Origin: Anaeromyces robustus
Taxonomy: Eukaryota
Reading direction: 5' to 3'
NCBI GenBank assembly: GCA_002104895.1
Contig: MCFG01000247.1
Coordinates: 1-64,000 of the forward strand
DNA length: 64,000 bases
Shown: one piece after another, positions 1,497-1,748 of the stretch
How positions within the stretch are numbered: position 1 is the stretch's first letter
Layout: every line of letters begins with the position of its first letter
Notes under the pieces: model-generated
The model's input: only the letters and a program-made list of their open reading frames with translations
What the model was told of the DNA's origin: nothing
Database searches by the model: none
Made by a program: the position numbers and the translations under genes

Positions 1497-1748
1497 ATGA
1501 GATTAAGAAATATTATCTTACCATTAGTAGCATTTGCTTTAATAGCTTCATCATCTCCAATTAGAGATGATTTATTAAAACGTGGACGTAATCCAAGAGA
1601 TATTGATAATGTAAATATTGAATATGATATATTAAAACGTGGACGTAATCCAAGAAGTATTGATGATGATCTTAAAATTAGACATTTCAAACGTGGACGT
1701 AATCCAAGAATTAGAAGAGCTCTACGCAAAAGACCAGGTAGAGCTTAA
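1497..1748 (+). CDS. Small secreted repeat precursor (KEX2-processed repeat protein-like): signal peptide + 3x KR|GRNPR
   Basis: 83-aa intronless ORF preceded by an A-rich leader. It has a basic N-terminus and hydrophobic IILPLVAFALIASS, then three KRGRNPR cores encoded by an identical 21-mer aaacgtggacgtaatccaaga (1578, 1635, 1689). RR and RKR sites lie near the C-terminus. Confidence 0.8.
   Translation: MRLRNIILPLVAFALIASSSPIRDDLLKRGRNPRDIDNVNIEYDILKRGRNPRSIDDDLKIRHFKRGRNPRIRRALRKRPGRA

What the first reader, a model, noticed from the sequence alone, without database searches (positions are those of the whole stretch)
1497..1748. Prohormone/pheromone-like precursor releasing repeated GRNPR peptides in an anaerobic chytrid-lineage fungus
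Seen: signal peptide - SPIRDDLL - KR|GRNPR-DIDNVNIEYDIL - KR|GRNPR-SIDDDLKIRHF - KR|GRNPR-I-RR-AL-RKR-PGRA. The KRGRNPR core is identical in all three copies, even at the nucleotide level, while the acidic spacers diverge in sequence and length. Established: signal peptide + repeated KR-flanked cores is the layout of alpha-factor, fungal KEPs/RiPP precursors and animal neuropeptide precursors. Kex2 can also cut after Pro-Arg (K1 killer toxin), and Kex1 trims basic residues. Inference: the products are either 17-, 16- and 6-aa peptides sharing an N-terminal GRNPR, or three copies of GRNP(R) with acidic spacers. No tailoring enzymes (DUF3328, oxidases) are visible in the window, which favours a linear signal peptide or effector. 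I know of no peptide pheromone or hormone described in Neocallimastigomycota, so this may be an undescribed peptide signalling system (zoospore, mating or cell-density cue).
Basis: partly seen in the sequence, partly recalled or inferred. Interest (0 to 1): 0.85.

Follow-up and report, generated by a model that had tools for sequence, protein, structure and literature searches.

The report
Small secreted repeat-peptide precursor gene
An unannotated but transcribed 83-codon gene of an anaerobic gut fungus encodes a signal peptide followed by three KR-GRNPR units, the layout of a common fungal class of protease-cut peptide precursors; nothing shows that it is a pheromone.

Summary
Window 1497-1748 (+) is an ATG-to-TAA ORF of 83 codons. 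It has a signal-peptide-like N-terminus and three KRGRNPR cores whose 21 nt are identical, with diverged spacers. It looks like a real gene. It is a 28-30% GC island in flanks of 6-9% GC. The antisense frame has no ATG. Twenty of 24 listed sequencing runs hold it, 7 of them recorded as RNA. The host is an anaerobic gut fungus: about 12% GC, with a CBM_10 dockerin gene 2.5 kb away.

The layout matches a Kex2-processed repeat protein (KEP). It passes one published definition at its minimum and fails a stricter one, because its third unit is only 6 aa. KEPs are widespread, and two surveys already count 7-35 per strain in four anaerobic fungi. It is therefore a new, orphan member of a known kind, not a new signalling system.

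No relative was found in any collection searched, and none of them visibly holds anaerobic-fungal genomes. Orthology, processing and function remain untested.

The parts
1497..1748 (+). Whole ORF: 83 codons plus TAA, single exon, first ATG two codons after an in-frame stop
   Evidence: GC 0.285 at 1501-1700 against 0.055-0.09 in the flanks
1497..1553 (+). Signal-peptide-like N-terminus, residues 1-19 (MRLRNIILPLVAFALIASS). n-region charge +2; 12-residue hydrophobic core I6-A17; small residues at -3/-1 (A17, S19)
   Evidence: Best 9-mer Kyte-Doolittle mean is 2.84, against 3.01 for the neighbouring CBM_10 protein's leader. The cleavage site is inferred from the -3/-1 rule, which is recalled. 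SignalP was not available.
1554..1577 (+). Acidic pro-segment SPIRDDLL, residues 20-27, net charge -1
1578..1598 (+). Core 1, KRGRNPR (AAACGTGGACGTAATCCAAGA)
1599..1634 (+). Spacer 1, DIDNVNIEYDIL. With GRNPR it forms the predicted 17-aa peptide, net charge -2
1635..1655 (+). Core 2, KRGRNPR, 21 of 21 nt identical to core 1
1656..1688 (+). Spacer 2, SIDDDLKIRHF. With GRNPR it forms the predicted 16-aa peptide, net charge +1
1689..1709 (+). Core 3, KRGRNPR, 21 of 21 nt identical
1710..1745 (+). Basic C-terminal tail IRRALRKRPGRA with further RR and RKR sites
1470..1790 (+). Minimum stretch present in assembled contigs of RNA runs: at least 27 nt of 5' leader and 42 nt of 3' trailer
   Evidence: all 29 sampled words of 1470-1790 are held by 4 runs on record as RNA (X2, X3, X4, X8). 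Strand, ends and level are not shown, because no reads could be laid.

Best explanation
This is a real, transcribed, single-exon gene of an anaerobic gut fungus (Neocallimastigomycota). It encodes a small secretory pre-pro-peptide of the KEP (Kex2-processed repeat protein) type.

Proposed mechanism, all steps inferred:
1. The N-terminal 19 residues direct the protein into the ER and are removed.
2. A Golgi kexin cuts after each Lys-Arg, and probably after Arg-Arg. A Kex1-type carboxypeptidase then trims the basic ends.
3. The cell exports GRNPRDIDNVNIEYDIL, GRNPRSIDDDLKIRHF and GRNPRI, which share the N-terminus GRNPR, plus small basic remnants.

What is shown: the ORF, its repeat anatomy, its coding-like composition and its presence in RNA runs. 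Secretion, cleavage and any activity are inferred.

The role of the peptides is open. My ranking is: (a) an extracellular peptide acting on the fungus itself or on neighbouring microbes; (b) cationic GRNPR-type cores kept neutral by acidic spacers until cleavage.
For: Gene reality:
- The ORF coincides with a GC island: 0.285 against 0.055-0.09 in the flanks.
- The antisense open frame over the same span has no ATG.
- Arg CGT, Pro CCA and Asn AAT are codons also used by Pfam-supported genes of the window. CGT makes up 8 of 9 Arg codons in the CBM_10 gene.
- Twenty of 24 listed runs hold at least half of the sampled words. Seven are on record as RNA, from 5 studies, with shares 1.00 x4, 0.93 and 0.66 x2.

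Secretory entry:
- The N-terminal hydropathy peak is 2.84, like the leader of the adjacent dockerin protein at 3.01.
- The rest of the protein is strongly hydrophilic, mean -1.48.

Repeat and cleavage layout:
- There are three identical KRGRNPR cores at 57/54-nt spacing.
- Four of the 5 lysines in the mature part are followed by Arg. Four or more KR arose in 2,419 of 200,000 shuffles.
- It is the only one of 125 ATG ORFs of at least 30 aa in the window that combines an SP-like start with 2 or more dibasic sites.
- The three cores share all 7 codons. The probability is about 5e-4 if codons were drawn independently from the window's usage, while the spacers diverged.

Other:
- No confident fold was predicted: mean pLDDT 55.9, pTM 0.20, single sequence. 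That fits a processed pro-peptide but is weak evidence.
- KEPs exist in this phylum.
- Orpinomyces sp. appears only in sheets a and e of Le Marquer's Additional file 1. It is therefore not in the sheet of catalogues lacking KEX1, KEX2 or STE13. I infer this from where the term occurs; I did not read sheet b.
Against: - No signal-peptide or cleavage predictor was run; the SP call rests on simple hydropathy and a recalled rule.
- The three KR sites are one duplicated site, so they are not independent support.
- Only three units exist and the third is 6 aa. This fails Umemura's criterion of at least 3 repeats of at least 8 aa.
- Apart from GRNPR and an ID pair, the released peptides would differ, unlike classic KEPs with near-identical peptides.
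- No homolog was found, so there is no evolutionary evidence for constraint on the core.
- No kexin gene could be looked for in this organism, because no genome is held.
- Identity at synonymous sites can also reflect gene conversion or a DNA- or RNA-level constraint rather than selection on the peptide.
Confidence: 0.5

Rival explanations
1. It is a secreted but unprocessed small protein. The 64-aa mature product, net charge +12, stays intact and acts as a disordered polycation, for example by binding acidic polymers of a cell wall, plant wall or nucleic acid.
For: Net charge +12 and 16 Arg in 64 residues. No confident fold: pLDDT 55.9. The KR sites are one duplicated motif, so they may be incidental to an Arg-rich repeat. 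Gly at P1' is the same in all sites, and whether kexin accepts it was not tested.
Against: The regular placement of KR exactly at unit boundaries, and 4 of 5 Lys followed by Arg, is the pattern of processed precursors. Alternating acidic and basic blocks are typical of pro-peptides (recalled).
Confidence: 0.2
2. It is a mating pheromone or hormone-like cue. The GRNPR peptides would be ligands of a receptor controlling mating, zoospore behaviour or density sensing.
For: Only the layout, which alpha-factor shares. A protein-atlas neighbour at rank 7 is an MF_alpha cluster with score 0.76, which the tool rates as below lead level. Wilken 2019 (passages seen) reports STE20, STE6 and GPA1 homologs in these fungi but no homolog of the S. 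cerevisiae peptide mating factors, so a niche is open.
Against: No Pfam MF_alpha hit. No XA/XP Ste13 dipeptides after KR. Held by runs from 17 studies, so it is not obviously stage-restricted. KEPs are numerous and mostly not pheromones. Sexual reproduction has not been observed in this phylum (recalled).
Confidence: 0.06
3. It is not a translated gene. The transcript is non-coding, or the three GC-rich 21-mers (each with ACGTGGACGT) are DNA- or RNA-level elements, and the ORF is incidental.
For: Core identity extends to all synonymous sites. The exact protein is absent from a 15-billion-protein collection. No homolog was found. Both strands are open over the span.
Against: The GC island matches the ORF borders. 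An ATG in an A-rich context follows an in-frame stop by two codons. The leader is well formed. The antisense frame lacks an ATG. In DNA of about 8% GC, stop-free frames of 85 codons are otherwise rare in the window (one search lists few outside the GC islands).
Confidence: 0.12
4. It is an AT-hook-like DNA-binding protein of a very AT-rich genome.
For: The only library hits at E<=1e-3 include two proteins with KRGRKPK or KRGRPKR repeats, which is an AT-hook-like pattern.
Against: The core is GRNP, not the contiguous GRP of AT-hooks (motif recalled). No AT_hook family appeared in the Pfam scan at E<=10. A hydrophobic leader is not expected on a nuclear protein. The hits are 27-35% identical low-complexity matches to proteins 330-1,360 aa long.
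Confidence: 0.03

Closest known systems
KEX2-processed repeat proteins (KEPs) as defined by Le Marquer et al. 2019 (PMC6339444) and Umemura 2020 (PMC7329392)
   Same: Signal peptide, tandem units bounded by KR/RR, short predicted peptides (6-17 aa), and no homologs outside a narrow taxon. Umemura states that most KEP types occur in a single genus. KEPs were counted in Orpinomyces, Piromyces, Anaeromyces and Neocallimastix.
   Different: Only three units, the third 6 aa. The units share only GRNPR plus a few positions rather than being near-identical. The protein is not in the protein sets those surveys mined, since the exact sequence is absent from the 15-billion collection. GRNPR does not occur in the held supplement texts, which may be cut.
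Saccharomyces cerevisiae alpha-factor precursor (MF-alpha; Pfam MF_alpha_N / MF_alpha)
   Same: Pre-pro layout and KR-bounded repeats. The residues just after KR are the most conserved part of the unit, as with the EAEA spacer (recalled).
   Different: No Pfam match. No long glycosylated pro-region. No XA/XP dipeptides for Ste13. The peptides are not identical.
Candida albicans Ece1 / candidalysin precursor
   Same: A small secreted precursor cut at KR into several non-identical peptides (described in Umemura's background).
   Different: Ece1 is larger, with eight peptides. No sequence similarity was found. The peptides here are hydrophilic rather than membrane-active amphipathic helices (inference).
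Multi-peptide antimicrobial precursors with acidic spacers (insect apidaecin, plant Ib-AMP; recalled, not tested)
   Same: Basic Arg/Pro-containing cores alternate with acidic spacers and dibasic sites.
   Different: No similarity was tested or found. GRNPR is only five residues. No activity data.
AT-hook repeat proteins
   Same: KRGR-x-P-[KR]-like basic repeats separated by acidic or neutral linkers.
   Different: Asn interrupts the GRP core. The protein has an N-terminal hydrophobic leader. No Pfam AT_hook hit.

Membership tests
KEP (Le Marquer 2019 definition) | N-terminal signal peptide, no transmembrane protein | tested here: inconclusive
   Hydropathy and charge pattern fit: peak 2.84, a 12-residue core too short for a membrane span, small residues at -3/-1. 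SignalP and TMHMM, which the definition uses, were not available.
KEP (Le Marquer 2019 definition) | In-silico cuts at KR/RR give at least 4 fragments of at least 2 aa | tested here: met
   Six fragments of 8, 17, 16, 6, 3 and 4 aa. Criterion read.
KEP (Le Marquer 2019 definition) | At least three fragments fall into one repeated pattern | tested here: inconclusive
   Three fragments begin with GRNPR, which is the minimum number. Their iupac2meme/Fimo pipeline was not run, and the shared part is only 5-7 residues.
KEP (Umemura 2020 definition) | At least 3 tandem repeats of at least 8 aa each between KR/KK/RK/RR sites | tested here: not met
   The units are 17, 16 and 6 aa. Criterion read.
KEP (any definition) | Kexin (Kex2) present in the organism and cleavage actually occurs | not testable with these tools
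   No genome is held. No Peptidase_S8 among 20 window ORFs. Indirect evidence only: Orpinomyces sp. is not in the sheet of catalogues lacking KEX1/KEX2/STE13.
Alpha-factor type pheromone precursor (Pfam MF_alpha_N, MF_alpha) | Match to the family profiles | tested here: not met
   The Pfam scan at E<=10 returned only a sub-threshold Maf hit.
Alpha-factor type pheromone precursor | XA/XP dipeptides after the KR site for Ste13 | tested here: not met
   KR is followed by G-R, then N-P. The first dipeptide is not XA/XP. Feature read.
Ustiloxin-type fungal RiPP precursor | DUF3328 (UstYa-like) gene near the precursor | tested here: not met
   None of 20 ORF translations across the 64-kb window hit DUF3328. 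These were ORFs, not spliced models, so a short-exon gene could be missed.
AT-hook proteins | Contiguous R-G-R-P core; nuclear protein | tested here: not met
   The core is G-R-N-P-R. No AT_hook in Pfam output. A hydrophobic leader is present. The motif definition is recalled.
Lipopeptide (a-factor type) pheromone | C-terminal CAAX box | tested here: not met
   The C-terminus is PGRA and the protein has no Cys. The feature is recalled.

The most novel reading that the evidence does not exclude
The GRNPR peptides are a genuine extracellular signal of anaerobic gut fungi, for example a zoospore release or encystment cue, a density cue or a mating cue. That would be the first peptide signalling system in Neocallimastigomycota. 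It would be encoded by a gene that standard annotation missed and that is held by runs from many studies.
Probability: 0.07. Interest if true: 0.75.

Novelty: new member of a known kind. Interest (0 to 1): 0.3.

Why it matters
Anaerobic gut fungi are key fibre degraders in herbivores. Their life cycle (zoospore release, chemotaxis, encystment) and any mating are poorly understood, and no secreted peptide has been given a function in them.

This gene is short, unannotated and held by runs from many studies. Its three predicted peptides are easy to synthesise, so it is a cheap test case for peptidomics and bioassays.

It also shows that small single-exon ORFs in the GC islands of these very AT-rich genomes escape protein catalogues. 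Published KEP counts for the phylum may therefore be underestimates.

On present evidence it is one more orphan KEP-like gene, a class with thousands of members of unknown function.

Tried and rejected
Searches that found no relative:
- Whole-genome search: no genome is held for this window.
- Pfam on the protein: only a sub-threshold Maf match, E 0.19.
- Word-indexed protein search: at lengths 45-146 aa, 83 candidates and none at E<=10. At lengths 147-2000 aa, 746 candidates and none at E<=10. Lengths under 45 aa were not searched.
- Full phmmer over 1.84 billion representatives: 3 hits at E<=1e-3 and 0 at E<=1e-10. Two carry basic KRGRKPK or KRGRPKR repeats and one is a 1,360-aa ankyrin-repeat protein. 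I rejected all three as low-complexity matches.
- Exact look-up: the sequence is not in the collection.
- The search for related loci in metagenome contigs: 594 pattern matches, 0 confirmed.
- Two-copy degenerate DNA pattern in metagenome contigs: 1 locus, L001. It is a non-coding bacterial tandem hairpin repeat with stops between the copies, so I rejected it.
- Same pattern in genome contigs: 1 locus, L002. It is an off-frame reading of a GC-rich 21-nt tandem repeat inside a minus-strand gene of a bacterial MAG, so I rejected it.
- Same pattern in viral contigs: 0 matches. The pattern fixed CGT for the first Arg, so copies using AGA there would be missed.

Other attempts:
- Protein atlas: best score 0.80, recognition 1773, below the tool's lead level.
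- Single-sequence structure: pLDDT 55.9, no fold search attempted.
- Literature: no paper links GRNPR to a peptide (15 papers, all acronyms). 'Neocallimastigomycota' + 'Kex2' gave 2 papers, neither on peptide precursors by their titles and abstract starts. 'anaerobic fungi' + 'small secreted' + 'zoospore' + 'peptide' gave 0 papers. Swift 2021 (PMC8106346) contains none of the words RiPP, ribosomally, Kex2, precursor peptide, signaling or pheromone.

Full report
**Observation.** Window 1497-1748 (+) is an ATG-to-TAA ORF of 83 codons: MRLRNIILPLVAFALIASSSPIRDDLLKRGRNPRDIDNVNIEYDILKRGRNPRSIDDDLKIRHFKRGRNPRIRRALRKRPGRA. The repeat finder gives three 28-nt direct repeats starting at 1575, 1632 and 1686, spaced 57 and 54 nt. 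The 21-nt KRGRNPR cores at 1578, 1635 and 1689 are identical. They are the only 3 matches in the window even with 3 mismatches allowed, and 100 shuffles gave 0. The spacers align at 23 of 37, 18 of 39 and 11 of 36 positions. Units 1 and 2 are alike beyond the core: 52 nt at 87%. The true unit is therefore about 18-19 codons, with conserved ends ([IL]-L-K-R-G-R-N-P-R-x-I-D) and a variable middle.

**Is it a gene?**
- The ORF sits in a GC island, 0.285 at 1501-1700, within flanks of 0.055-0.09. The island at 1451-1830 is one of 37 in the window; the larger ones correspond to Pfam-supported genes.
- The ATG is the first in its frame, two codons after a stop, in an A-rich context.
- The antisense frame is also stop-free over the same span but contains no Met.
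- Codon choices (CGT and AGA for Arg, CCA, AAT, AAA) are those of the window's confirmed genes. The CBM_10 gene uses CGT for 8 of 9 Arg.
- Of 24 sequencing runs listed for 1470-1790, 20 hold at least half of the 29 sampled words.
  - Seven are on record as RNA (metatranscriptomic 'fungus metagenome'): X2, X3, X4 and X8 at 1.00, X14 at 0.93, X19 and X20 at 0.66, from 5 studies.
  - Eleven more are guessed to be RNA, one is of unknown kind and one is guessed to be DNA (X11, 0.97).
  - The four non-holders were added only as same-sample rows.
- Presence in contigs of RNA runs shows a transcript covering at least 27 nt upstream and 42 nt downstream of the ORF. It does not show strand, ends or level.

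**Organism and neighbourhood.** The window is about 12% GC overall. It carries a secreted protein with two CBM_10 dockerin domains (4301-5545, minus strand, E 7.7e-25). It also carries a CotH plus Chitin_bind_1 protein, an ankyrin protein, Mo25 exons and a protein kinase. From established knowledge, CBM_10 dockerins in a eukaryotic genome this AT-rich point to Neocallimastigomycota. Wilken 2019 (passages) calls these the most GC-depleted fungal genomes. The caveat is that single ORFs were scanned, not spliced models.

**Anatomy.**
- Residues 1-19 have the shape of a cleavable signal peptide. There are two Arg in the n-region and a 12-residue hydrophobic core (best 9-mer Kyte-Doolittle mean 2.84), followed by A-S-S. 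The leader of the neighbouring dockerin protein scores 3.01 and has a similar ...VAFA... core. The cleavage point after S19 is my inference from the -3/-1 rule, which is recalled. SignalP was not available.
- The remaining 64 residues carry net charge +12, with 16 Arg and 8 Asp.
- Cutting at KR/RR gives SPIRDDLL, GRNPRDIDNVNIEYDIL (17 aa, charge -2), GRNPRSIDDDLKIRHF (16 aa, +1), GRNPRI (6 aa), ALR and PGRA.
- Four of the 5 Lys are followed by Arg. Four or more KR arose in 2,419 of 200,000 shuffles of the mature part. Because the three main KR sites are copies of one duplicated unit, this is not independent evidence.
- In a crude scan of 125 ATG ORFs of at least 30 aa, 8 had an SP-like start with a hydrophilic remainder. 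Only this one had two or more dibasic sites (it has 5); one other had 1 and six had 0.
- A single-sequence AlphaFold model has mean pLDDT 55.9 and pTM 0.20. That means no confident fold, which is weak but consistent with a pro-peptide.

**The identical cores.** All 7 codons are the same in all three copies. With codons drawn independently from the usage of four window genes, the probability is about 5e-4. The copies therefore share descent, and the core has either been held constant while the spacers diverged or been homogenised by conversion. With one gene and no orthologs I cannot separate peptide-level selection from a nucleotide-level cause.

**Relatives.** None was found.
- The word-indexed protein search found none at E<=10 for lengths 45-146 aa (83 candidates) or 147-2000 aa (746 candidates).
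- The exact sequence is not among about 15 billion proteins, so the gene is unannotated in those sources.
- phmmer over 1.84 billion representatives gave 3 hits at E<=1e-3 and none at E<=1e-10. Two carry AT-hook-like KRGRKPK or KRGRPKR repeats and one is an ankyrin protein, at 27-35% identity. I read these as low-complexity coincidences.
- Metagenome contigs gave 594 pattern matches with 0 confirmed.
- A two-copy degenerate DNA pattern found one non-coding bacterial repeat (L001), one off-frame bacterial tandem repeat (L002) and nothing in viral contigs.
- None of these collections visibly holds anaerobic-fungal genomes.

**Comparison with what is known.**
- The architecture is that of KEX2-processed repeat proteins. 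Le Marquer 2019 (PMC6339444; passages and supplement hits seen) requires a signal peptide, at least 4 fragments after KR/RR cuts, and at least 3 fragments in one pattern. The ORF meets the fragment rule and reaches the minimum of three GRNPR-initiated fragments. I did not run their pipeline.
- Umemura 2020 (PMC7329392; passages and supplement hits seen) requires at least 3 repeats of at least 8 aa. The third unit is 6 aa, so this criterion is not met.
- Both surveys already count KEPs in anaerobic fungi: 15 in Orpinomyces sp., and 7, 21 and 35 in Piromyces finnis, Anaeromyces robustus and Neocallimastix californiae. Umemura notes that most KEP types occur in one genus, so orphan status is normal for the class.
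- GRNPR does not occur in the held supplement texts of either paper. Those texts may be cut, and Umemura's tables list accessions rather than sequences.
- Alpha-factor membership fails: no Pfam match and no XA/XP after KR.
- AT-hook membership fails: the core is GRNP rather than GRP, there is a hydrophobic leader, and there is no Pfam hit.
- Ustiloxin-type RiPP membership fails on the missing DUF3328 neighbour.
- Wilken 2019 states that homologs of the S. cerevisiae peptide mating factors are absent from these genomes. Swift 2021 does not mention RiPPs, Kex2 or pheromones.
- Searches for a described peptide signal in the phylum found none. For one search I judged the 12 papers by titles and abstract starts and opened only Wilken 2019.

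**Mechanism and odds.**
- Best reading (0.5): a pre-pro-peptide that enters the secretory pathway, is cut after KR (and RR) by a kexin, is trimmed by a Kex1-type carboxypeptidase, and releases two or three peptides with the common N-terminus GRNPR. Whether Pro-Arg is also cut, which would free GRNPR or GRNP, is open.
- Rivals: a secreted but uncut polycationic protein (0.2); an untranslated transcript or nucleotide-level repeat (0.12); an AT-hook-like protein (0.03).
- The pheromone or hormone reading is a special case of the best reading with no specific support (0.06-0.07).

**Verdict.** It is a minimal, orphan, unannotated KEP-like precursor, so it is a new member of a known and very populous kind. 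The claim of an undescribed peptide signalling system is not supported by anything beyond layout. Interest is modest (0.3). The peptides are cheap to synthesise and to look for in culture supernatant.

Noticed in passing
window 4301-5545 (-): A 414-aa secreted protein with two CBM_10 fungal dockerin domains (E 7.7e-25), a GN(T/S)GNGG linker repeat and a C-terminal domain with no Pfam match at E<=0.01. By its motifs it looks like an esterase-type cellulosome component. It is the strongest marker that the window is from an anaerobic gut fungus.
   Followed up: partly
window 15847-18805 (+): A CotH kinase-like domain followed by two Chitin_bind_1 domains joined by Thr/Lys/Pro-rich linkers. A short ORF at 15847-15978 looks like its signal-peptide exon. 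Umemura's KEP type S-6 in Neocallimastix and Piromyces also carries Chitin_bind_1.
   Followed up: partly
window 1889-1938 and 2037-2086: A 50-nt direct repeat at 98% identity, 148 nt apart, in the 3' flank of the ORF, continuing as 1927-1956 / 2077-2106. Meaning unknown.
   Followed up: no
window 1253-1281, 1380-1400, 1469-1497: An AAAGTAAAATT-containing segment recurs three times upstream of the ORF, the last copy ending at the ATG. It may be a duplicated leader or promoter segment, or simply AT-rich drift.
   Followed up: no
window 2190-2265 and about 3150-3420: Long (TTTA)n microsatellites. GC is 0.000 at 3201-3400, and they produce artefactual FIYL-repeat ORFs.
   Followed up: no
window 61505-61858 (+): Another small ORF with a signal-peptide-like start and a Cys-containing acidic body, no Pfam match and no dibasic repeats. 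It is probably the first exon of a secreted protein.
   Followed up: no
window 7770-10151 (-) and 36448-37350 (-): An ankyrin-repeat protein and a putative zinc-finger-adjacent protein, both with very long poly-Asn and Asn/Asp/Glu runs. This is typical of the homopolymer-rich proteomes described for these fungi.
   Followed up: no
L001 540-780: A bacterial metagenome contig with about six tandem copies of a roughly 41-nt unit containing a GTGGG-N-CCCAC hairpin, downstream of a membrane-protein gene. It happens to read KRGRNPR in one frame and is unrelated to the finding.
   Followed up: no
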